Below, one piece after another: positions 11,853 through 20,049 of a DNA stretch of 64,000 bases (positions are counted from its first letter, which is position 1; the number at the start of each line of letters is the position of its first letter). A model generated the notes under the pieces. It was not told the origin of the DNA and searched no databases. It was given only the letters and a program-made list of their open reading frames with translations. Source of the DNA: Bdellovibrionales bacterium (lineage in GTDB: Bacteria; Bdellovibrionota; Bdellovibrionia; Bdellovibrionales; UBA1609); assembly GCA_014323935.1 (NCBI GenBank), contig JACOND010000001.1:30348-94347 (forward strand), written 5' to 3'. The translations under genes were made by a program, and so were the position numbers.

Positions 11853-12770
11853 TTAGTTTTTAATTGTTTGATTGAGTTGAGTTTGAAATTTCTCTAGAAT
11901 TAAACCATAACGAACTCCTGTCACGGAAACAAGAAAGCTTGTTTTTTCACTCAAATGTAAAATCTGATTTAAAAGGCTAAGACCTGCTACAATGACATCA
12001 GTTCGATGTTCTGGAAGATAGGGAATCTTTTTTCTTTCTTCAACACTTAACTGAGATAATTTACTTAACCAAAAATCAACTTGCTCTCTTTGAAGAATTA
12101 AACCATGTATCTTATTCATATCTGTTGTTTTCGTTTCCATTAAAGCAAGAGTTGTAGGAGTTCCAGCCGTAAAGATAATTTTATCATGAGATTCTTTTAA
12201 AAAACTTTCAAGGTGTTGAAGTTTTTTAAGGATAAATTCATTGAGATTTTTTCTTTCTGATAAGCTTATAGCTTTTAGACTTAAAAACCTTTCTGTAAGA
12301 GATACAGTACCTATATTTAGACTGTATTTTTTTTTTGAGTCGACAAATTCAGTCGAACCTCCTCCTATATCAATCACTAAAGGGTTAAAACAAGTTTGAC
12401 CTAAACCAAAAAAACTTCCTATAAAAGTAAGTTCCGCTTCTCTTTGAGAAGAAATAATTTGAAGAGGGCTAAGAAAGTATTGATTTGCTAAGTCTAAAAT
12501 ATTTTTTTTATTTTCAGCTTGTCTTACAGCACTTGTTGCAACAATAGAATATTCTTTAATATCCCATGATTTGAGTTTTTTTTGAATATCTTGAAAAGCT
12601 TTTTCTAAGCGAGCTAAAGCACTATCACTGACTTTAGAACTATATTCCATATTCTCAGCTAAGCGAGTGAAATAAATTTCATCAGCTAGAACTTCAAAAC
12701 CTGTTTCCGTTTTTTCAACAATTAACAAAAGACTTGTATTTGAACCTATGTCTACTCCAGCCAATCTCAT
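11853..12770 (-). CDS. ppx: Exopolyphosphatase / GppA-family phosphatase (short form)
   Basis: 305 aa with ASKHA motifs GVDIGSNTSLLLIV and IDIGGGSTEF. Confidence 0.8.
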   Translation of the reverse strand: MRLAGVDIGSNTSLLLIVEKTETGFEVLADEIYFTRLAENMEYSSKVSDSALARLEKAFQDIQKKLKSWDIKEYSIVATSAVRQAENKKNILDLANQYFLSPLQIISSQREAELTFIGSFFGLGQTCFNPLVIDIGGGSTEFVDSKKKYSLNIGTVSLTERFLSLKAISLSERKNLNEFILKKLQHLESFLKESHDKIIFTAGTPTTLALMETKTTDMNKIHGLILQREQVDFWLSKLSQLSVEERKKIPYLPEHRTDVIVAGLSLLNQILHLSEKTSFLVSVTGVRYGLILEKFQTQLNQTIKN

Positions 12771-12771
12771 T

Positions 12772-14202
12772 TCAGCAATCCTCTAAAAGTTGTTTTAAAA
12801 TATGAGATAGTTTTTGAGGGTTAGCTTGCCCTTTGGTTTTCTTCATAACTTGCCCTATAAAAAAACCAAAGAGTTTACTTCGTCCCTGTTTATAATCTTG
12901 AACTTGCTTGGGGTTTTGATTTAAGACGTCTTGAGCGAAAGCTTTTAATTTTGAATCACTAGAGATTTGTTTTAAATTTTTCTCTTTAATAATTTGATCA
13001 GGAGATTTAGCTTGATTCCACATTTCAGAAAAAATATCTTTTGCCATCGTATTAGAAATATCTCCCTCATCAATTAAATTTAAAAGACGGGCAAAATCTT
13101 TTACAGGTATAGGACAGACTCTTTGATTTTTTTCTTTTAAGTGAGCTTGAATTTCCCCCCTAAACCAAAGACTTAAAGCTTGAGGGTTTTTAGTTTGCAA
13201 AACCACCTGTTCAAAATAATCAGCTTGTTTAAAATCTTCAACAAGAATTTGAGCGAGATCTGGTGTGAATTTATACTCTTTTACAAATCTTTGAGTTTTA
13301 TCAAAAGGAAGCTCAGGTAAATCAAGCTGGTTTAAAAAATTTTCTGAAACGTCAAGTTCAGGTAAATCTGGATCAGGAAAGTATCTATAGTCTCTTGCTG
13401 ATTCTTTAGAACGCATAGATTTAGTTTGGTTTTTAGTAGAGTCATATAACCTTGTCTCTTGTGTAAGAGCTTGTCCTAATTTTAAACATTCTATTTGTCT
13501 GGCTTTTTCATAAAAAAGAGCTTTTTCTATAAAACGAAAAGAGTTGATATTTTTTAATTCTACTTTAGCCCCTAGTTGTTTTTGCCCTTCGGGACGAACA
13601 CTTATATTACAATCACACCTCATAGAACCTTCTTCTAAATTACCATCACAAACCTCTAAATATCTTAGAAGGCGACGAATAGCTTTAACACATTGACTCG
13701 CTACATAAGGATCAGAAATAACTGGTTTTGTTACAATTTCTAACAAAGGAGTTCCCGCTCGATTATAGTTAATAAGAGAAAAATTTCCTTTGTGAAGAGA
13801 TCGACCGGCATCTTCTTCAATATGAATTCTTTCTAAAGCAATAGAAATTTCTTGATTCTTATGAAAAAACTGAATAAAACCGCCTTCACAAAAAGGTTTA
13901 TCGTATTGAGAAATCTGATACCCTTTAGGGAGATCAGGATAAAAGTAATTTTTTCTAGAAAAAACACTCTTCTTTTTTAAACATCCCTGGACAGCTTTTC
14001 CTGTTTTAAAAGCCATTTTCAAAGCCTCTTCATTTAAAACAGGAAGGGTCCCTGGAAGAGCTAAGCTGACAGGGTGAATCTCTTGATTTTCTCCGGGATT
14101 AAATCCTGCTCGATCTGGGGAAAAAAGTTTGCTTTGAGTTTTGAGCTGAGCATGTATTTCTAAGCCAATACTTACTAAAAAATTTTGTTCTTTTGCTTGC
14201 AC
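12772..14202 (-). CDS. gatB: Asp/Glu-tRNA(Asn/Gln) amidotransferase subunit B
   Basis: 476 aa with the GatB N-terminus IGLEIHAQL and a C-terminal YqeY-like tail. The start is GTG. It lies downstream of gatC-gatA. Confidence 0.92.
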   Translation of the reverse strand: MQAKEQNFLVSIGLEIHAQLKTQSKLFSPDRAGFNPGENQEIHPVSLALPGTLPVLNEEALKMAFKTGKAVQGCLKKKSVFSRKNYFYPDLPKGYQISQYDKPFCEGGFIQFFHKNQEISIALERIHIEEDAGRSLHKGNFSLINYNRAGTPLLEIVTKPVISDPYVASQCVKAIRRLLRYLEVCDGNLEEGSMRCDCNISVRPEGQKQLGAKVELKNINSFRFIEKALFYEKARQIECLKLGQALTQETRLYDSTKNQTKSMRSKESARDYRYFPDPDLPELDVSENFLNQLDLPELPFDKTQRFVKEYKFTPDLAQILVEDFKQADYFEQVVLQTKNPQALSLWFRGEIQAHLKEKNQRVCPIPVKDFARLLNLIDEGDISNTMAKDIFSEMWNQAKSPDQIIKEKNLKQISSDSKLKAFAQDVLNQNPKQVQDYKQGRSKLFGFFIGQVMKKTKGQANPQKLSHILKQLLEDC

Positions 14203-14327
14203 TTTAATCCATCCCTTTGTGAGTAAATTCGATTCTATATAAAAATCTATTTTTTATTTTAAAATTCATTCTAGCTGTTTTTCAACTTTATTCTACTTTA
14301 ACTGCATTTTATAACAATTAATCTTTT

Positions 14328-15761
14328 TTATTTATATTTTTCAGGAGATTTCTCAAAAATATTGAGATCTTCTTCTAAAGCTAAAGCTACATTTAAAATT
14401 TTTTGCTCTCCTAGAGCCGGACCTATAAGCTGAAGACCTATAGGTAATTTATCTTTTGAAAAACTACAAGGAAGGCTAAGAGCTGGGGAACCAATCAAAT
14501 TTGCAAAAACAGTAAAGATGTCATTTAAATAAAAGGATAAATTCTTTCCTTCCGTCTTTTTAGAATTTAAAAGAGGAGCTGTGTTTTTAGATACAGGGGA
14601 GATAATAGCCTCACAAGAAGAAAAAATCTCATCAAAAGCTTGCTTGATAAGATATCTTACTTGACAAGCTTTATGAAAATAATCCTCATAATATCCTGAA
14701 GACAGACTAAAAGTACCAATGAGAATACGACGACGAACTTCTTTACCAAAAAAATCTAAACGATTTAAAGAATAAAATTCTTGAAGAGATTGAGAAGATT
14801 TCAAACTTTGTTTTCCGTAACGAATTCCATCATAACGAGAAAGATTACTACTAGCTTCAGAGGTAGATATTAAATAATACGCAGAGATTCCATAGTCTAA
14901 AAAAGGTATCTTCTTTTCTATGAGACAACATCCTCTTTGTTCTAAGAGTTTTAAAGCTTTCTGATAAGCGGATACAATTTCTGGATTCATTTCATTTTTA
15001 AAAGGCTCTAAATCAAAATAAGCAAGGGTTTTATTTTTAATTTCAGAGCTTAAATTTTTTTGAAAATAAGGTGGTTTTGTCTTTAAACTTGTAGAGTCTT
15101 TGGAATCAAATCCACTCATAACATCTAAAAGAAGGGCTGAATCTTCAACCGTATGAGTAAAGATTCCCGCTTGATCAAGGCTAGAGGCATAAGCAATCAT
15201 TCCATAACGACTCACTCTCCCGTAAGTCGGTTTCAAACCTACAAGATGACAATAATTAGCAGGAAGGCGAACCGAACCCCCCGTATCTGTTCCTAAACTT
15301 GCAGGACAAAGACGTGCAGAAACCGCTGAAGCACTTCCACTACTAGAACCTCCTGGACTGTGCTTCTCATTCCAAGGATTTTTACTAGCTCCAAAATAAG
15401 AATGTTCTCCTGTAGAACCCATACCAAACTCATCATTATTGCATTTGCCAATAATGATAGCTCCTTCTTGTTCTAATTTTTCAACAGCTGTTGCTGTATA
15501 AGGAGGAAGGTACTGTTCTAAACCTTTAGAACCTGCAGTTGTTCTTAAATCTTTTGTACAGAAAAGATCTTTAACCCCAATAGGAATCCCAGCTAAACGT
15601 CCTTTTTTTTTAAACGAAGGGATTTTTTTCCAGCTGATAAAAGCATTTAAACAAGGATTATATTTTTCAATCCTTTTAAGGTAAAAATCAAAGACTTCTT
15701 TTGGGGAAACTTCAGAGGATTGGAGTTTTTTTTGAAGACTACAAAGACTAAAAAAATCCAT
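14328..15761 (-). CDS. gatA: Glutamyl-tRNA(Gln) amidotransferase subunit A
   Basis: 477 aa with the amidase signature GGSSSGSASAV and the TDTGGSVRLPA block. Confidence 0.92.
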   Translation of the reverse strand: MDFFSLCSLQKKLQSSEVSPKEVFDFYLKRIEKYNPCLNAFISWKKIPSFKKKGRLAGIPIGVKDLFCTKDLRTTAGSKGLEQYLPPYTATAVEKLEQEGAIIIGKCNNDEFGMGSTGEHSYFGASKNPWNEKHSPGGSSSGSASAVSARLCPASLGTDTGGSVRLPANYCHLVGLKPTYGRVSRYGMIAYASSLDQAGIFTHTVEDSALLLDVMSGFDSKDSTSLKTKPPYFQKNLSSEIKNKTLAYFDLEPFKNEMNPEIVSAYQKALKLLEQRGCCLIEKKIPFLDYGISAYYLISTSEASSNLSRYDGIRYGKQSLKSSQSLQEFYSLNRLDFFGKEVRRRILIGTFSLSSGYYEDYFHKACQVRYLIKQAFDEIFSSCEAIISPVSKNTAPLLNSKKTEGKNLSFYLNDIFTVFANLIGSPALSLPCSFSKDKLPIGLQLIGPALGEQKILNVALALEEDLNIFEKSPEKYK

Positions 15762-15763
15762 AA

Positions 15764-16048
15764 CTAAATACTAGGAGGTGTTTTAATTAAAGCTCCTTGT
15801 TTTTTAGAAGCTTGTTCTAGAAGTTTATCTTTATCTGGAAAATCAAGAACTTTGTCAGATCTTAAACATAAAGGAGGTTTTAAAGGACTTACAAGAGCAG
15901 GAAGCTTTTTAGATTCAATACTTTTAATTTTTTCAAAGTAAGATAACACTTCCTTCAAAAAAAATTTTAATTCCACCTTCTCTTCTTCTTTTATTTTAAG
16001 AGCTGCAAGTTCAGAAATTTCTTTTAAAACCTTATCTGTAATTTCCAT
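15764..16048 (-). CDS. gatC: Asp/Glu-tRNA amidotransferase subunit C
   Basis: 94 aa from the ATG at 16048 (MEITDKVLKEISELAALKI). The ORF track extends to a TTG at 16084. The TAG stop lies 2 nt before the gatA ATG. Confidence 0.85.
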   Translation of the reverse strand: MEITDKVLKEISELAALKIKEEEKVELKFFLKEVLSYFEKIKSIESKKLPALVSPLKPPLCLRSDKVLDFPDKDKLLEQASKKQGALIKTPPSI

Positions 16049-16192
16049 GGATTCTCTTATAAAGGAATTAAAAAAAAATAGCAAGAGAAAGGAAGTTTTA
16101 ACTTTCCTTTTTTCTTAACTTTCTGATCTAAACTGAGAAGGAGATTTTTAATTGACAAAAGAAAATTTTTAAATTTTACTAGTTTTAAATTT

Positions 16193-17557
16193 ATGGAAAA
16201 CCTTATAGAACCTTATAAGATAAAATCCTTAGAACCTATTTACTGGACCAGCCGAGAAGAGCGAAAAGAAATCTTAAAAAAAGCTCATCTCAATTTGTTT
16301 TTTATTTCTTCTAAAAATGTCATTATAGATCTTTTAACAGATTCAGGAACAGGAGCAATGAGTGCTAATCAATGGGCCAGTCTAATGAATGCAGATGAGT
16401 CTTATGCGGGTTCAAAAAGTTTTGATCTCTTTGAACAAACTGTTCAAGAGATAACAGGATTTAAACATGTGATTCCCACACATCAAGGAAGGTCGGCGGA
16501 AAGAATTTTATTATCTCAATTTAAACAAAACGGAGAATATATTGTTTCAAATACTTTATTTGATACAACAAGAGCTAACTCTGAAGACTATGGGTTTAAG
16601 GTTTTAGATATTCCTTGTCCTGAGTTTTTTAAAGATGATGAAGTTCATCCCTTTAAAGGAAACATTGATCTCATAGCCTTAGAGAAGACTTTAAAAGAAA
16701 AATCCGTAGCTCTTGTGATTTTAACCATTACAAATAATTCAGCAGGAGCTCAACCTGTTTCTTTAGAAAATATAAAAGAAACAAAAAAACTATGTCAAAA
16801 GTATTTTGTACCTCTTTGTTTAGATGCCTGCCGTTTTTCTGAAAATGCATGGTTTATAAAAAAAAGAGAGTCTGGTTTTTCAAAAAAAACCATTAAAGAG
16901 ATTGTCAAAACTAGCTTTGACTGTGCTGATTTAACTTTTGTATCTGCTAAAAAAGATGGCTTGAGTCATATCGGAGGTTTTCTTTGTGTAAGAGAATCAA
17001 CTCTCAGTGAAAACTGTAAAAACCGTTTGATTTTAACAGAAGGCTTTCCCACATACGGAGGTCTAGCAGGCCGGGATTTAGAAGCTGTAGCTTTAGGTTT
17101 GAGGGAGGTTTTAGAAGAATCTTATTTGAAACATCGTATAGACTCTACGGCTTATTTACATCAACAGTTACTTGAAGGAGGATTTCCTGTTTTAAGTCCA
17201 CCTGGAGGACATGCGGTCTATATTGATGCTAAAAAGTTACTTGCTCATCTTCCTGTATCTTCTTATCCTGGACAAGCTTTAGTTTCTTCTTTATACGAAT
17301 ATGCAGGGATAAGAACTTGTGAAATAGGTTCTGTTATGTTTGGAAAAACTTTAGAAAACGGAAAAGAAATATATCACAATAAAGAGTTGGTTCGGCTTTG
17401 TCTTCCTCGAAGAGTTTATACAAAATCTCATCTGAATTATGTATCTAACTCTCTTATTTCTTTTAAGGAAAAAGAATTAGATAAAATTAGAGGAATTAAG
17501 ATAGTAAAGTCTTCTCCTTTTTTAAGACACTTTAGTTCTCACTTCGATTGGATTTAA
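16193..17557 (+). CDS. Tryptophanase / tyrosine phenol-lyase family PLP enzyme (beta-eliminating lyase)
   Basis: 454 aa, colinear with E. coli TnaA as I recall it. Matching blocks are MEN...EP, IDLLTDSGTGAMS, DESYAGSKSF, TITNNSAGAQPVSL, the PLP-lysine context SAKKDGL, and EGFPTYGGLAGRD. I cannot separate Trpase from TPL by eye. Confidence 0.85.
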   Translation: MENLIEPYKIKSLEPIYWTSREERKEILKKAHLNLFFISSKNVIIDLLTDSGTGAMSANQWASLMNADESYAGSKSFDLFEQTVQEITGFKHVIPTHQGRSAERILLSQFKQNGEYIVSNTLFDTTRANSEDYGFKVLDIPCPEFFKDDEVHPFKGNIDLIALEKTLKEKSVALVILTITNNSAGAQPVSLENIKETKKLCQKYFVPLCLDACRFSENAWFIKKRESGFSKKTIKEIVKTSFDCADLTFVSAKKDGLSHIGGFLCVRESTLSENCKNRLILTEGFPTYGGLAGRDLEAVALGLREVLEESYLKHRIDSTAYLHQQLLEGGFPVLSPPGGHAVYIDAKKLLAHLPVSSYPGQALVSSLYEYAGIRTCEIGSVMFGKTLENGKEIYHNKELVRLCLPRRVYTKSHLNYVSNSLISFKEKELDKIRGIKIVKSSPFLRHFSSHFDWI

Positions 17558-17620: not shown

Positions 17621-19735
17621 ATGAAAATAAATACAAACAAAGATTTAAAGCGAATTCAAGAATTAAAAGAAAAGATTCGTTATCACGATAGCTTGTATTA
17701 TAACTTAGATCAACCTGAAATCACAGATTTTGAATACGATAACCTTTTTAAAGAATTAATTCATTTAGAGAAAAAATACCCTCAATTTAAAACTCAAGAT
17801 TCTCCCTCTCAAAAAATAACAGGAGAGGCTTTGTCTCATTTTGAAAAAAAAGCTCATACTCAACCGATGCTTTCCTTGCAAAATAGCTACTCTTTAGAAG
17901 AAATTAAAATTTTTTATCAAAGAGTACTAAAATCACTCAAAGAAGAAGACCTAACTTTTTTTATGGAGCCTAAGTTAGATGGAATGGCCGTTGAATTAAT
18001 TTATGAAGAGGGTTTTTTTAAAACGGCTTTGAGCCGAGGGGACGGTGTTGTCGGAGAAGACATTACCAATTCTGTTAAAACCATAAGATCTATCCCTGTC
18101 AGTTTAGCTCCTTTTGAAGAAAAAAAACCTCAAAAAAATTCGAATTCTATATCTGTTCCTCCTATTTTAGAAATAAGAGGAGAAATTTTAATTTTTAAAA
18201 AAGACTTTGAATTAATCAATAGAGAACAAGAGCTCGCTAAACTTCCTATTTTTGCTAACCCTAGAAATTTAGCCTCTGGATCAATACGGCAGTTAGATTC
18301 TAAAATAACAGCTAAAAGACCTCTTCGTTGTTTTATTCACAGCTTAGGTGGTCTTGAAATACCAGGTATTAAAACACAAGAAAAATTTATTCAATATTTA
18401 CAAAAACTCAAATTACCAACTTTTCGGGTTTGTAAACATAAAAATCTCAAACCCCCTTTAGATTTATGCCGTGTCAGTCACAGCTTTGAAGATGTTGTAG
18501 ATTATTACAAACAAATGGAAAAACTAAGAAAAAAATTACCTTTTGAAATTGATGGAATCGTTTTAAAATTGAATAAGATAGAACAACAAAAAAAATTAGG
18601 TTTTATAGCTCGAAGCCCTCGTTGGGCTATTGCTGGAAAATTCACTCCCGAACAAAAAGAAACTCTTTTAAAAGAAGTTAAGTTTCAAGTAGGACGAACC
18701 GGTGTCATTACTCCTGTCGCTATTTTAAAACCTGTTCAAATCGGAGGTGTGACAATTCGTCATGCAAGCCTTCATAATTTCAAAGAATGGACTCGAAAAT
18801 CTGTTCAAAAAGGGGATAAAGTTCTCGTTCATAGAGCCGGGGATGTGATACCAGAGATAATAAAAAAAGTACAAGATAAGAAAAAAAATTCTTTGACTAC
18901 TGATTCTGTAACAATTCCTAAACACTGTCCTGTTTGTTCAACTTTGACTAAAGAACAAGGAGATTATCTTGTTTGTACAAATCAACAGTGTCCCTCTATT
19001 ATAGAAAATAAATTCATTCATTTTTCAAGTAAAAAAGCAATGAACATAGAATTTTTAGGAGTTAAAAGCCTTAAAAAATTTTGTAAATGGGGTTGGTTAA
19101 AAAAATACTCTGATATTTATGATTTAGTAAATAAACCTATAAAGGAAAAAGAAGGATTTGGAGAAAAATCTTACCAGCTGATAGTAAAAAGTTTAGAGAA
19201 AAGTAAAAAAGTTAGTTTACAGCGATTCCTTTTTGCTCTAGGTATTCCTTTAATAGGAGAGGAAACAGCAGGAAAAATCAGTGAAGTCATTTATAGTAAA
19301 ACAGTTAATTTAAATTTACTAAAAGCTTTAAGTTTTTTAAAAAATCTCTCACAAGAGGAGTTAGAAGCCATTTCTGATATAGGACCTCTTGTCGCTCAAT
19401 CTTTTAAAAAGACTTTTGAAAACAAAGAATTGATTGAAGACATTGAAGCTCTACACTCTAAAGGTTTAAATTTACTACCTAAACCAGAAAAAAACAATCA
19501 ATTGCAAGGATTGAATTTTGTTATCACAGGAAAATTAAAAATACCTAGAGATTCTTTGAAATTACAAATTATAAGAGAAGGAGGAAAGGTTCTTTCTCAA
19601 ATAAGTTCTCAAACAAGTTATTTAATTTCTGGAGAAAATTCAGGAAGTAAAAAACAAAAGGCTTTAAAATTATCTATTCCTATCTTAAGCTATAAAGAGC
19701 TTTTAATAAAATTTCCTTTCCTAAAAAAAACATAA
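17621..19735 (+). CDS. ligA: NAD-dependent DNA ligase
   Basis: 704 aa with the adenylation site EPKLDGMAVEL and a Cys4 Zn finger (CPVCS...C...CP). HhH and BRCT-like regions sit at the C-terminus. Confidence 0.95.
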   Translation: MKINTNKDLKRIQELKEKIRYHDSLYYNLDQPEITDFEYDNLFKELIHLEKKYPQFKTQDSPSQKITGEALSHFEKKAHTQPMLSLQNSYSLEEIKIFYQRVLKSLKEEDLTFFMEPKLDGMAVELIYEEGFFKTALSRGDGVVGEDITNSVKTIRSIPVSLAPFEEKKPQKNSNSISVPPILEIRGEILIFKKDFELINREQELAKLPIFANPRNLASGSIRQLDSKITAKRPLRCFIHSLGGLEIPGIKTQEKFIQYLQKLKLPTFRVCKHKNLKPPLDLCRVSHSFEDVVDYYKQMEKLRKKLPFEIDGIVLKLNKIEQQKKLGFIARSPRWAIAGKFTPEQKETLLKEVKFQVGRTGVITPVAILKPVQIGGVTIRHASLHNFKEWTRKSVQKGDKVLVHRAGDVIPEIIKKVQDKKKNSLTTDSVTIPKHCPVCSTLTKEQGDYLVCTNQQCPSIIENKFIHFSSKKAMNIEFLGVKSLKKFCKWGWLKKYSDIYDLVNKPIKEKEGFGEKSYQLIVKSLEKSKKVSLQRFLFALGIPLIGEETAGKISEVIYSKTVNLNLLKALSFLKNLSQEELEAISDIGPLVAQSFKKTFENKELIEDIEALHSKGLNLLPKPEKNNQLQGLNFVITGKLKIPRDSLKLQIIREGGKVLSQISSQTSYLISGENSGSKKQKALKLSIPILSYKELLIKFPFLKKT

Positions 19736-19787
19736 AATATTTTATGGTCTTTAAAATAAAAACTTAACTGTAGTTTATATAAATAAA

Positions 19788-19811
19788 AAGGGCTATTTTA
19801 GAATTAGCCTT
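19788..19811 (-). terminator. Candidate intrinsic terminator between the convergent ligA and histone-like genes
   Basis: The hairpin is aagggcta / tagcctt, a 7-bp stem with one bulged G and a 9-nt loop. On the minus strand it is followed by TTTTATTTAT. It lies 14 nt past the stop of the 19825-20049 gene. Confidence 0.4.
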
Positions 19812-19824
19812 GCTTAAATGAATT

Positions 19825-20049
19825 TCACTCCTTTTCAGAGAGGCTTGTTATTGAAGAAGAATTTAGAAGAATATCAACTTTAGGAACATGAGAAGGGCGA
19901 GCTGTCTTTAGCTTGTCAGAAAAAACATTATCTACTGTTTTGAGACAAAGTTTTTCAAATTCTTTACTGAGAACCTCAAAAGTTTTACTTGAAACTCTCA
20001 CACCTTTTTCTTTAAATAATTGTTTCACTTTTTTAGTTGTAATCAACAT
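19825..20049 (-). CDS. Small histone-fold-like DNA-binding protein (Bd0055-like)
   Basis: 74 aa. The segment LITTKKVKQLFKEKG..SSKTFEVLSKEFEKLCLKTV is colinear with the Bdellovibrio bacteriovorus histone Bd0055. I recall that sequence as VVTSKVKKLIKEKG..SAETIDVLSKAIEQLCLKGV. The C-terminal third diverges. Confidence 0.55.
   Translation of the reverse strand: MLITTKKVKQLFKEKGVRVSSKTFEVLSKEFEKLCLKTVDNVFSDKLKTARPSHVPKVDILLNSSSITSLSEKE

What the first reader, a model, noticed from the sequence alone, without database searches (positions are those of the whole stretch)
19825..20049. Candidate bacterial histone-fold protein (Bd0055-like)
Over its first ~40 residues the 74-aa product aligns with the B. 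bacteriovorus histone Bd0055 as I remember it. The blocks compared are TTKKVKQLFKEKG / TSKVKKLIKEKG and EVLSKEFEKLCLKTV / DVLSKAIEQLCLKGV. Bd0055 is a singlet histone reported as a major chromatin protein that binds DNA end-on rather than wrapping it.

Here the C-terminal part (KTARPSHVPKVDILLNSSSITSLSEKE) lacks the RD-type pair I recall and carries a Ser-rich tail. It may therefore be a divergent member.

It is the last gene of a three-gene minus-strand string and is followed by a terminator-like hairpin.
Basis: partly seen in the sequence, partly recalled or inferred. Interest (0 to 1): 0.55.

Follow-up and report, generated by a model that had tools for sequence, protein, structure and literature searches.

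The report
Bdellovibrio-type bacterial histone lacking RD clamp
This small gene encodes a real bacterial histone sitting at the same chromosomal position as the Bdellovibrio histone Bd0055/HBb, but in this rare group of uncultured relatives the salt bridge that marks almost all histones has been replaced and a short conserved tail added.

Summary
It matches the solved Bd0055/HBb chains (E 8e-9, residues 2-51). Two AlphaFold models give a histone fold with a one-turn alpha3, and their best PDB matches are HBb (TM 0.77-0.88, rmsd 1.2-1.3 A).

New points:
- **Position.** The gene lies convergent to ligA, followed by gatCAB-ppx, which is where canonical Bd0055-type genes lie. It is a positional ortholog.
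- **C-terminus.** The odd C-terminus is the signature of a rare subfamily, about 24 clusters against more than 1080 canonical ones. In 31 members the RxTxxxxD motif has R 0/31 (L/I/V/M/A instead), D 0/31 (H 29, Q 2) and T 14/31. After it come an invariant Pro and a conserved [ILV]-D-x-L-L-[DSN]-S-S extension.
- **Selection.** dN/dS is 0.03-0.09 in informative pairs.
- **DNA contacts.** Most HBb DNA-contact positions are kept or made more basic.

It is most likely a dimeric, non-specific DNA-binding nucleoid protein, but this is inferred. Oligomeric state, DNA binding and abundance were not testable.

The terminator hairpin is weak and not conserved.

Verdict: a new variant of a known kind, of moderate interest.

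The parts
19825..20049 (-). Gene for the 74-aa histone-fold protein (an HBb/Bd0055 ortholog of the RD-clamp-less subfamily), stop codon included.
   Evidence: The ORF is listed. An in-frame stop lies 2 codons upstream of the ATG. The identical protein is on record as MBC6414812.1, 'hypothetical protein GDA46_00230, Bdellovibrionales bacterium'. It matches Bd0055 in PDB at E 8e-9.
20008..20037 (-). Predicted helix alpha1 (residues 5-14), carrying the conserved lysines K6, K7, K9 and K13.
   Evidence: Both AF2 models place a helix at 5-14. Across 31 subfamily members, K6 is 30/31, position 9 is K/R in 31/31 and K13 is 28/31. These correspond to HBb S9, K10, K12 and K16, which are DNA-contact residues in PMC11317129.
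19990..20007 (-). Loop L1 (residues 15-20: K-G-V-R-V-S), with conserved G16, K/R18 and S20.
   Evidence: G16 is 29/31, K/R18 is 31/31 (HBb has N22 here) and S20 is 30/31 (HBb S24). HBb N22, T23 and S24 contact DNA phosphates.
19918..19989 (-). Predicted central helix alpha2 (residues 21-44), including the conserved K-[LI]-C-L-K block shared with Bd0055.
   Evidence: Both AF2 models place a helix at 21-44 with block pLDDT 89-93. C35 is 30/31. The region aligns to Bd0055 EQLCLKGV.
19882..19917 (-). Loop L2 plus the one-turn alpha3 (residues 45-56: D-K-L-K-T-A-R-P-S-H-V-P). This is the site where the RxTxxxxD / RD-clamp motif is replaced by L-K-T-x-[KR]-x-x-H-[VI]-P.
   Evidence: See alignments A1/A3 and the counts:
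- Position 47: L 25, V 2, I 2, A 1, M 1, and no R.
- K48: 31/31.
- Position 49: T 14, I 14, V 3.
- Position 51: K/R 29/31.
- Position 54: H 29, Q 2, and no D.
- P56: 31/31.

Both models show a helical turn at 52-54.
19852..19881 (-). Conserved C-terminal extension (residues 57-66: K-V-D-I-L-L-N-S-S-S). Its first part aligns with the Bd0055 C-terminus (I-D-H-L). The L-[DSN]-S-S part lies beyond the canonical end.
   Evidence: Counts: hydrophobic 58 in 31/31, D59 28/31, L61 23/31, L62 27/31, S64 22/31 and S65 22/31. pLDDT falls here, from 82 for residues 51-60 to 46-48 for residues 61-70.
19828..19851 (-). Non-conserved tail (residues 67-74: I-T-S-L-S-E-K-E), predicted disordered.
   Evidence: pLDDT is below 50 from residue 63 or 66 onward. 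Length and sequence vary among orthologs.
20058..20063 (-). Weak Shine-Dalgarno-like AAAGGT, about 9 nt upstream of the ATG, overlapping the stop of the upstream 71-aa ORF.
   Evidence: Read directly. Most orthologs have strong AAGGAGG / GGGAGG sites at the same place.
19781..19809 (-). Hairpin (5-bp stem, 9-nt loop) plus T-run downstream of the stop. It is weak and not conserved.
   Evidence: Folding gives z = -0.58 against shuffles. The terminator scan does not report it. In orthologs the histone and ligA stops abut or overlap.
17621..19735 (+). ligA (NAD-dependent DNA ligase), convergent with the histone gene. It is the anchor of the conserved synteny.
   Evidence: Pfam ligase domains are listed. 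The same arrangement occurs next to variant genes and next to canonical Bd0055-type genes.
11853..16084 (-). gatC-gatA-gatB-ppx block that follows ligA in both variant and canonical loci (synteny context).
20056..20271 (-). Upstream 71-aa ORF, 6 nt from the histone start. It has a signal-peptide-like N-terminus and a K/R-rich C-terminus ending GTGQR. It is a conserved neighbour, with no evidence of a functional link.
   Evidence: Similar 70-80 aa ORFs ending [ST]TGQR / STGKR / AKGQK lie directly upstream of the variant histone in L003/L010, L005, L006, L011 and L012. tblastn is weak (E 3e-6 and 6e-4). There is no family hit.
20325..21404 (-). Upstream 359-aa lipoprotein-like ORF (lipobox LISC, DxSxS motif). 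It is a conserved neighbour in most variant loci and absent from canonical loci.
   Evidence: Orthologs at 43-60% identity lie upstream in L003/L010, L004, L005, L006, L011 and L012. There is no Pfam hit. Canonical loci carry a Metallophos gene instead.

Best explanation
The gene encodes the ortholog of the Bdellovibrio histone Bd0055/HBb in a rare lineage of uncultured, low-GC Bdellovibrionales-like bacteria with small genomes. Their record titles read 'Bdellovibrionales / Oligoflexia / Bdellovibrionaceae bacterium', and their chromosomes are 1.4-2.2 Mb.

**Shown here:**
- It is a real gene under strong purifying selection.
- It has an alpha3-truncated histone fold closest to HBb.
- It occupies the Bd0055 chromosomal position (histone convergent to ligA, then gatCAB-ppx).
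- Its lineage has replaced the RxTxxxxD 'RD clamp' with hydrophobic-K-[TIV]-x-[KR]-x-x-H-[VI]-P.
- It has extended the C-terminus with a conserved [ILV]-D-x-L-L-[DSN]-S-S segment.

**Inferred:**
- It forms a histone-fold homodimer and binds DNA without sequence preference, as a nucleoid-associated protein.
- Binding would go through the paired L1-L2 loops and alpha1 lysines onto minor-groove phosphates, as HBb does. K9, K13, S20 and K48 are conserved. K6, K/R18 and K/R51 add positive charge, giving net charge +5.6 against +1.6 for a canonical member.
- The L2 loop would be held by hydrophobic packing of L47 and by H54-V55-P56 instead of the Arg-Asp salt bridge.
- The first part of the extension would pack on the partner's alpha2, as the I-D-H-L end of HBb does.
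- The Ser-rich part would be free to modulate dimer-dimer or DNA contacts.
For: - **Sequence:** E 8e-9 to Bd0055 chains. The subfamily profile gives 7e-12 to Bd0055, 2e-6 to HTkC and 1e-5 to HLp. hhalign against the canonical profile gives 97.5%.
- **Fold:** two AF2 runs, one using only subfamily sequences, both give alpha1 5-14, alpha2 21-44 and a turn at 52-54 with pLDDT about 80. Foldseek PDB top hits are HBb at TM(target) 0.77-0.88 and rmsd 1.2-1.3 A, followed by HLp, HTkC and H4.
- **Orthology:** variant genes in 9 of 10 loci lie convergent to ligA followed by gatCAB. Canonical genes P0038 and P0045, 84-86% identical to Bd0055, lie in the same place.
- **Selection:** dN/dS is 0.03, 0.05, 0.05, 0.08 and 0.09 in the five pairs with aa identity of at least 76%.
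- **Translation signals:** strong SD sites in most orthologs.
- **Motif counts and charge:**
- **DNA-contact residues of HBb:** PMC11317129.
- **RD clamp roles:** PMC10627809 and PMC11390915.
Against: - Dimerisation, DNA binding and abundance are all inferred.
- The RD clamp and, in half of the subfamily, the L2 threonine are lost. These are the most conserved DNA-binding-loop features of histones, so the DNA-binding geometry may differ or be weakened.
- HBb R57, a top DNA contact, is not conserved at the aligned position (S/N/G).
- The window gene has only a weak SD and sits 6 nt behind a gene for a probable secreted protein. That is not the obvious layout for a very highly expressed gene.
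- Pfam PF00808 does not detect the window protein.
- Whether these genomes also carry a canonical histone, HU or IHF elsewhere is unknown.
Confidence: 0.7

Rival explanations
1. A neofunctionalised histone fold. The protein keeps the fold and its genomic position but no longer acts as a general DNA-coating or DNA-bending protein. Loss of the RD clamp and of the L2 threonine, together with the conserved P-x-[ILV]-D-x-L-L-D-S-S peptide, would mark a switch to a protein-protein role. Examples would be docking a partner on the nucleoid, or a regulatory adaptor, much as TAF or NF-Y histone folds work in eukaryotes.
For: - RxTxxxxD is lost entirely: R 0/31, D 0/31, T 14/31.
- The extension is invariant at P56 and conserved through D59, L62, S64 and S65, yet AF2 does not confidently fold it onto the monomer. 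That pattern is typical of short linear interaction motifs.
- Schwab et al. caution that not all prokaryotic histone-fold proteins need be genome organisers.
Against: - Basic character increased rather than decreased (pI 9.7, net charge +5.6).
- K48 is invariant, and the alpha1 lysines and L1 serine that contact DNA in HBb are conserved.
- The first half of the extension aligns with the HBb C-terminus, which packs on the partner subunit.
- No partner gene is evident. Both conserved neighbours look like exported envelope proteins.
Confidence: 0.17
2. A tetramer-forming (face-to-face-like) or otherwise higher-order histone. The new C-terminus would create a dimer-dimer interface, so the protein wraps or bridges DNA rather than acting as an isolated dimer.
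For: - His at the clamp-Asp position followed by V/I is also seen at the C-terminus of the face-to-face histone HTkC (RKTLYARHV, alignment).
- The closest non-subfamily relatives, P0012 and P0014, end in RKTVKKSHI and carry basic N-terminal tails, as many bacterial FtF histones do.
- FtF histones are reported in Bdellovibrionota.
Against: - Profile scores favour HBb (48 bits) over HTkC (31) and HLp (28.5).
- Counting back from the RxT position, the FtF tetramerisation residues (R41 and N45 of D4GZE0) correspond to N41 and D45 here.
- The FtF interface uses a free C-terminus right after alpha3, whereas this protein continues for about 20 more residues.
- Synteny ties it to the dimeric HBb.
Confidence: 0.1
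3. A decaying or spurious ORF: a Bd0055 remnant with a frameshifted or read-through C-terminus in a reduced genome.
For: The C-terminus differs from the highly uniform canonical family. The window copy has a weak SD and no family annotation.
Against: - The same C-terminal motif recurs in 31 sequences that are 35-60% identical overall.
- dN/dS is 0.03-0.09.
- ORFs are intact, with strong SD sites in orthologs.
- The fold is predicted confidently.
Confidence: 0.02

Closest known systems
HBb / Bd0055 of Bdellovibrio bacteriovorus ('bacterial dimer' histones, alpha3-truncated histone superfamily; PDB 8FVX, 8FW7, 8CMP, 9EZZ, 9F0E)
   Same: - Singlet histone fold with a short alpha2 and a one-turn alpha3.
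- 43-45% identity over 56-59 aligned columns in Foldseek, rmsd 1.2-1.3 A.
- Shared blocks T-x-K-V-K-x-L-x-K-E-K-G and L-S-K-x-x-E-x-L-C-L-K.
- Conserved alpha1 lysines, L1 serine and L2 lysine.
- Same genomic position, convergent to ligA, then gatCAB-ppx.
   Different: - The RD clamp is absent: L47 for R51 and H54 for D58. D49, which augments the clamp in HBb, is only partly kept.
- R57 is not conserved, and a K/R appears two residues earlier.
- N22 becomes K/R and S9 becomes K.
- One residue is deleted in L1.
- An invariant Pro is inserted after alpha3.
- There is a conserved L-L-[DSN]-S-S extension plus a variable tail, giving 61-96 aa against a uniform 64 aa.
- The protein is more basic.
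- The family is far rarer and more divergent: about 24 clusters at 35-60% identity, against more than 1080 clusters whose best 120 listed are 78-95% identical to Bd0055.
- The upstream neighbours differ.
Face-to-face (FtF) histones: HTkC of Thermococcus kodakarensis (9F2C) and HLp of Leptospira perolatii (9QT0)
   Same: - Alpha3-truncated histone fold, with TM(target) 0.83-0.88.
- Profile E 2e-6 and 1e-5.
- HTkC also has His, not Asp, at the clamp position, followed by Val.
   Different: - FtF histones keep the clamp Arg.
- They end right after alpha3.
- They carry conserved tetramerisation residues (R and N upstream of RxT) that are N41 and D45 here.
- HLp keeps the R55-D62 clamp.
- They have no synteny with ligA.
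Archaeal nucleosomal histones (HMfB, 1A7W) and eukaryotic H4
   Same: General helix-loop-helix-loop-helix histone fold. They appear lower down the Foldseek lists, with TM about 0.5-0.6.
   Different: - They have a longer alpha2 and a three-turn alpha3.
- They have the RD clamp, the sprocket arginine and the tetramerisation histidine.
- No sequence-level match was detected: HMfB tblastn finds nothing at the window gene.
P0012 / P0014-type proteins (uncharacterised; basic N-terminal tail, ending RKTVKKSHI)
   Same: They are the closest relatives outside the subfamily in the exhaustive search (E 1e-5 and 3e-4). They share the K-I-C-L-[KR] block and His at the clamp-Asp position.
   Different: - They keep R-K-T.
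- They stop right after H-I.
- They carry a long basic N-terminal tail.
- They lie in an unrelated genomic context, next to a signal peptidase and not near ligA.

Membership tests
Histone fold (alpha3-truncated 'alpha3 histone' superfamily, Schwab et al. 2024) | Three helices alpha1-L1-alpha2-L2-alpha3 with a long central alpha2. | tested here: met
   AF2 gives helices at 5-14 and 21-44 and a turn at 52-54, with pLDDT 82-93 over residues 1-60, in two runs with different alignments. Foldseek top hits are all histones.
Histone fold (alpha3-truncated 'alpha3 histone' superfamily, Schwab et al. 2024) | Alpha3 truncated to 3-4 residues, and alpha2 shorter than in nucleosomal histones. | tested here: met
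   Alpha3 is a 3-residue helical turn at 52-54 and alpha2 is 24 residues. The best superpositions are with HBb, HLp and HTkC, not HMfB.
Histone fold (alpha3-truncated 'alpha3 histone' superfamily, Schwab et al. 2024) | Conserved RxTxxxxD motif (RD clamp plus the L2 threonine). | tested here: not met
   The window protein has L47-K48-T49-A-R-P-S-H54. In the subfamily R is 0/31, D is 0/31 and T is 14/31.
Histone fold (alpha3-truncated 'alpha3 histone' superfamily, Schwab et al. 2024) | Obligate head-to-tail dimer. | not testable with these tools
   Only single-chain prediction was available. The monomer model's pTM of 0.57 fits an extended fold that needs a partner, but it is no test.
Bacterial dimer histones (HBb/Bd0055 group) | Sequence clustering with HBb. 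This category was defined by sequence clustering. | tested here: met
   phmmer gives E 8e-9 to HBb chains. hhalign between the subfamily and canonical profiles gives 97.5%, E 6e-12. HBb is the best PDB hit by both sequence and structure. The subfamily nonetheless forms a clearly separate block in the alignment.
Bacterial dimer histones (HBb/Bd0055 group) | RKTxxxxD motif (printed 'RKTxxxD' in the paper; HBb R51-K52-T53...D58). | tested here: not met
   The sequence here is LKTARPSH. Only K48 is invariant.
Bacterial dimer histones (HBb/Bd0055 group) | Conserved alpha1 lysines (HBb K10, K12, K16), proposed to bind DNA. | tested here: met
   These are K7, K9 and K13 in the window protein. In the subfamily, position 7 is K 15 / N 13, position 9 is K/R in 31/31 and position 13 is K in 28/31.
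Bacterial dimer histones (HBb/Bd0055 group) | Non-specific DNA binding, high abundance and nucleoid association. | not testable with these tools
   No expression or biochemical data exist for this uncultured lineage.
Bacterial dimer histones (HBb/Bd0055 group) | Orthology to Bd0055. This is supporting evidence, not a published defining feature. | tested here: met
   The arrangement 'histone convergent to ligA, then gatC-gatA-gatB-ppx' is shared by variant loci and canonical loci. One variant locus, L012, lacks ligA downstream.
Face-to-face (FtF) histones | Conserved tetramerisation Arg and Asn in the C-terminal part of alpha2 (R41 and N45 of D4GZE0, six and two residues before the clamp Arg). 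| tested here: not met
   By position relative to the RxT site these residues are N41 and D45. In the subfamily, position 45 is D 17, E 6 and N only 1 of 31. No direct alignment to D4GZE0 was made.
Face-to-face (FtF) histones | Torus-shaped tetramer. | not testable with these tools
   No multimer prediction was available.
Pfam PF00808 CBFD_NFYB_HMF | Score above the gathering threshold. | tested here: not met
   The window protein has no hit at E <= 10. Nine of 26 subfamily members give sub-threshold hits, best E 0.006. Most canonical Bd0055-type proteins also lack a precomputed PF00808 hit.

The most novel reading that the evidence does not exclude
In this lineage the main chromatin protein would be a histone that has dispensed with the RD clamp, the one structural motif conserved in histones of all three domains. 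It would use a new, conserved C-terminal module (H-[VI]-P-x-[ILV]-D-x-L-L-D-S-S) to build a different dimer-dimer or DNA-binding geometry. That would be a third bacterial histone-DNA architecture, beside HBb (bending or coating) and HLp (tetramer wrapping).
Probability: 0.25. Interest if true: 0.6.

Novelty: new variant of a known kind. Interest (0 to 1): 0.45.

Why it matters
Only two bacterial histones (HBb and HLp) have been characterised. In both, as in archaeal and eukaryotic histones, the Arg-Asp clamp that shapes the DNA-binding L2 loop is treated as a near-universal signature.

Here the positional ortholog of HBb has lost both clamp residues across a whole lineage while staying under strong purifying selection. 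That makes it a natural experiment on whether the clamp is needed for a working histone, and on what can substitute for it.

The subfamily is invisible to Pfam and NCBIfam and is annotated 'hypothetical', so surveys based on those models will undercount bacterial histones. It also gives a short, easily synthesised target for biochemistry, through clamp-swap and tail-deletion mutants.

The finding is incremental rather than field-changing. The fold, the family and the probable role are already known.

Tried and rejected
- **Family libraries:** Pfam, NCBIfam, PHROGs and PADLOC scans of the 74-aa protein gave nothing meaningful. The PADLOC HORMA hit at E 0.012 and the Pfam OGFOD2 hit at 0.055 were judged noise.
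- **Word-index search:** searching with the window protein found only itself. The exhaustive phmmer search was needed to find relatives.
- **P0009:** this 2960-aa hit in the exhaustive search is a repeat-inflated false positive in a Chibby-domain protein.
- **Genome scans:** It worked with a narrower alignment.
- **Second histone, HU or IHF:** tblastn of the window and the loci fetched up to one search found no second histone gene, and a search for HU and IHF against the same loci found none. This says nothing about the whole genomes.
- **Source and habitat:** literature searches by accession or bin name found nothing useful. My reading of the RHO/CAR bin names as sponge metagenomes is from memory and unverified.
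- **Beta-clamp-binding motif:** the idea that P-Q-L-D-A-L-L is such a motif was considered and dropped. The Q is not conserved (K 14, Q 8, S 6, N 2, P 1), and the window protein has K.
- **Operon with the two upstream genes:** no family hits, and both look like exported proteins. I treat them as conserved neighbours only.
- **Rfam:** no hits in the whole window.
Full report
**Observation**

An in-frame TAA lies two codons upstream of the ATG, so the start is not in doubt. A weak AAAGGT lies about 9 nt upstream.

The identical protein is on record as MBC6414812.1, 'hypothetical protein GDA46_00230 [Bdellovibrionales bacterium]', on a 120,894-bp MAG contig. It also occurs in a JGI metagenome and in one sequencing-run assembly. 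The window has about 30% G+C.

**Is the Bd0055 resemblance real?**

Yes. phmmer against all PDB sequences aligns residues 2-51 to the Bd0055/HBb chains 8fvx_A and 8cmp_A at E 8e-9. The next hits are at E of at least 0.7.

Pfam and NCBIfam see nothing. Most canonical Bd0055-type proteins also lack a precomputed PF00808 hit.

**Relatives**

The word-index search found only the protein itself. The exhaustive phmmer search of 1.84 billion representatives found 14 hits, and a profile search then gave 24 clusters at 90% identity. A scan of GTDB species genomes gave 7 loci. Their records are titled 'Bdellovibrionales', 'Oligoflexia' or 'Bdellovibrionaceae bacterium', and three are chromosome-level records of 1.4, 1.8 and 2.2 Mb.

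A search with Bd0055 itself returned more than 1080 clusters. The best 120 are almost all 64 aa long and 78-95% identical to Bd0055. My recalled query was confirmed over residues 5-59. Residue 59 is I, not the F I had recalled.

So the window protein belongs to a rare, much more divergent sister group of the canonical family.

**The subfamily signature**

Alignments A1 and A3 separate the two groups cleanly.

- Canonical proteins end ...A-D-G-R-K-T-V-M-A-R-D-I-x-I-D-H-L.
- Every subfamily member instead has ...A-D-K-L-K-[TIV]-x-[KR]-x-x-H-[VI]-P-x-[ILV]-D-x-L-L-[DSN]-S-S..., followed by a variable tail.

Counts over 31 sequences:

| Position | Residues found |
|---|---|
| Clamp Arg (Bd0055 R51, window L47) | L 25, V 2, I 2, A 1, M 1; never R |
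| Clamp Asp (D58, window H54) | H 29, Q 2; never D |
| L2 Thr | T 14, I 14, V 3 |
| K48 | invariant |
| P56 (an insertion relative to Bd0055) | invariant |

Hocher et al. and Schwab et al. describe the L2 RKTV region and its R...D clamp as the stretch most highly conserved across all three domains of life. The clamp is present in HBb (R51-D58) and HLp (R55-D62). The Ser-rich stretch is likewise conserved (S64 and S65 each 22/31). Only residues 67-74 are idiosyncratic.

**Real gene under selection**

Nei-Gojobori estimates on the gene pairs that are not saturated give these values:

| Pair | dN/dS |
|---|---|
| L007/L008 (dS 0.52) | 0.03 |
| L007/L009 | 0.05 |
| L008/L009 | 0.05 |
| L010/L012 | 0.08 |
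| L006/L011 | 0.09 |

Most orthologs carry strong AAGGAGG-type ribosome-binding sites.

**Fold**

AlphaFold2 was run on a mixed alignment of variant and canonical sequences, and again on a variant-only alignment. Both runs gave the same model:
- mean pLDDT 80;
- alpha1 at 5-14 and alpha2 at 21-44;
- a single helical turn at 52-54;
- falling confidence after residue 60 and a disordered tail.

For both models, Foldseek against the PDB ranks the five HBb/Bd0055 entries first (TM normalised to target 0.77-0.88, rmsd 1.2-1.3 A over 56-59 columns). Leptospira HLp and Thermococcus HTkC follow, then eukaryotic H4 and archaeal histones.

The subfamily profile hits Bd0055 at 7e-12, HTkC at 2e-6 and HLp at 1e-5 in the PDB. 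hhalign against a canonical profile gives 97.5% probability.

**Orthology**

In the window the gene is convergent with ligA (17621-19735). Beyond ligA lie a beta-eliminating lyase, gatC, gatA, gatB and ppx.

- Variant genes on other contigs have the same layout: histone, convergent ligA, then gatCAB, with ppx where the flank reaches.
- One locus, L012, has lost ligA downstream but keeps the upstream neighbours.
- Two canonical proteins, 84-86% identical to Bd0055 (P0038 and P0045), lie in the same place: histone, convergent ligA, gatC, gatA, gatB, ppx.

The variant is therefore the positional ortholog of Bd0055, not a paralog. By contrast, the nearest non-subfamily relatives (P0012 and P0014: basic N-terminal tail, ending RKTVKKSHI) sit in an unrelated context.

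No second histone gene, HU or IHF is present in the 64-kb window or in the loci held at the time. This says nothing about the rest of the genomes.

**Likely mechanism (inferred)**

HBb contacts DNA phosphates across the minor groove through K12, T23, S24, A25, K52, T53 and R57. Molecular dynamics adds N22, S9, T8, K10 and K16. The window protein compares as follows:

| HBb residue | Window / subfamily |
|---|---|
| K12 | K9 (K/R 31/31) |
| K16 | K13 (28/31) |
| S24 | S20 (30/31) |
| K52 | K48 (31/31) |
| K10 | K7 |
| T8 | T5 |
| S9 | K (30/31) |
| N22 | K/R (31/31) |
| R57 | not kept; a K/R (29/31) sits two residues earlier |

Net charge is +5.6 (pI 9.7), against +1.6 for a canonical member.

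The simplest reading is a histone-fold homodimer that still binds DNA non-specifically through its L1-L2 sites and alpha1. The L2 loop would be stabilised by hydrophobic packing of L47 and by the H-[VI]-P turn instead of a salt bridge. The first part of the extension ([ILV]-D-x-L) aligns with the I-D-H-L end of HBb, which packs on the partner's alpha2. The L-[DSN]-S-S part is new and may modulate dimer-dimer or DNA contacts.

None of this could be tested here. There was no multimer prediction, no access to model coordinates and no expression data.

**Rivals**

- A switch to a protein-interaction role, with the conserved C-terminal peptide acting as a docking motif. This is possible. The increased basicity and the conserved DNA-contact positions argue against it.
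- A face-to-face-like tetramer. HTkC also has His-Val at the clamp-Asp position. However, the FtF tetramerisation residues are not present, and HBb is the closer relative.
- A decaying ORF. This is excluded by the conservation pattern and by dN/dS.

The 'three-gene minus-strand string' exists and is conserved in part.
- A 359-aa lipoprotein-like protein (lipobox LISC, DxSxS motif) lies upstream in six further loci, at 43-60% identity.
- A 70-80 aa ORF with a signal-peptide-like N-terminus and a K/R-rich C-terminus ending [ST]TGQR or a similar sequence lies directly upstream of the histone in most loci.
- Neither has any family hit. I see no evidence of a functional link to the histone.

The 'terminator-like hairpin' has a 5-bp stem and a 9-nt loop, and folds no better than shuffles (z -0.58). 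The terminator scan missed it. It has no counterpart in orthologs, whose histone and ligA stops abut or overlap.

**Comparison with the known and novelty**

The protein works like HBb, and by sequence, fold and synteny it is related to HBb. It fails the one motif (RxTxxxxD) that the literature treats as common to the alpha3 and nucleosomal histones. So I file it as a new variant (a distinct subfamily) of the bacterial dimer histones, not as a plain member. I found no paper describing an RD-clamp-less bacterial histone among the histone papers consulted, though that was not an exhaustive search.

Interest is moderate. It is a tidy natural experiment on the need for the RD clamp, and a reminder that family models miss bacterial histones. 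The kind of protein and its probable role are already known.

Noticed in passing
window 20056-20271 (-); also L003 5708-5938, L005 5761-5976, L006 629-844, L011 7745-7957, L012 7709-7948: A family of small ORFs (70-80 aa) lies directly upstream of the variant histone gene in most loci. Each has a signal-peptide-like N-terminus, a conserved Cys, a Y-x-K-L-L stretch and a K/R-rich C-terminus ending [ST]TGQR, STGKR or AKGQK. None has a hit in Pfam, PHROGs or PADLOC.
   Followed up: partly
window 20325-21404 (-): A 359-aa lipoprotein-like protein with lipobox L-I-S-C and a D-A-S-E-S (DxSxS, vWA/MIDAS-like) motif. It is conserved at 43-60% identity upstream of the histone in six other loci but has no Pfam match.
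   Followed up: partly
window 29853-30356 (-): An ankyrin-repeat protein (Pfam Ank, E 1e-11). Together with the 30% G+C and the 1.4-2.2 Mb chromosomes of relatives, this hints at a host-associated lifestyle. The bin names RHO and CAR recall sponge metagenomes, but that is from memory and could not be verified.
   Followed up: partly
window 16193-17557 (+): A beta-eliminating lyase gene (tryptophanase / tyrosine phenol-lyase type) is inserted between ligA and gatC. This occurs only in the window genome and its closest relative L004, not in the other variant or canonical loci.
   Followed up: no
L019 8001-8333 (P0014); L020 103-321 (P0012): Histone-fold proteins with a long basic N-terminal tail, ending R-K-T-V-K-K-S-H-I. 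They keep the clamp Arg but have His for Asp, and they lie in an unrelated context, not next to ligA. They may be an intermediate type or an FtF-like type. Their relation to Bd3044 was not tested.
   Followed up: partly
P0013 (133 aa, from the exhaustive search): A natural doublet of two canonical HBb-type histone folds, each with R-K-T-L-M-D-R-D. The linker and C-terminus are Cys-rich (C-N-C-P and C-Q-T-C-C).
   Followed up: no
L019 11091-11737 (-): Three tandem, near-identical copies of the C-terminal fragment of the adjacent tilS-like gene (ATP_bind_3), called as separate 64-67 aa genes.
   Followed up: no
PDB 9f2c (HTkC), alignment: The structurally solved face-to-face histone HTkC ends R-K-T-L-Y-A-R-H-V. 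His at the clamp-Asp position therefore has a precedent in a characterised histone, although HTkC keeps the Arg.
   Followed up: no
P0005, P0138 and the L011 7908-8207 reading: Some subfamily members may carry a basic N-terminal extension (for example MRRKRKREKNQRGQDRDN). Whether these are true tails or mis-called starts was not resolved.
   Followed up: no
window 1-64000: No Rfam family reached its gathering score anywhere in the 64-kb window.
   Followed up: no
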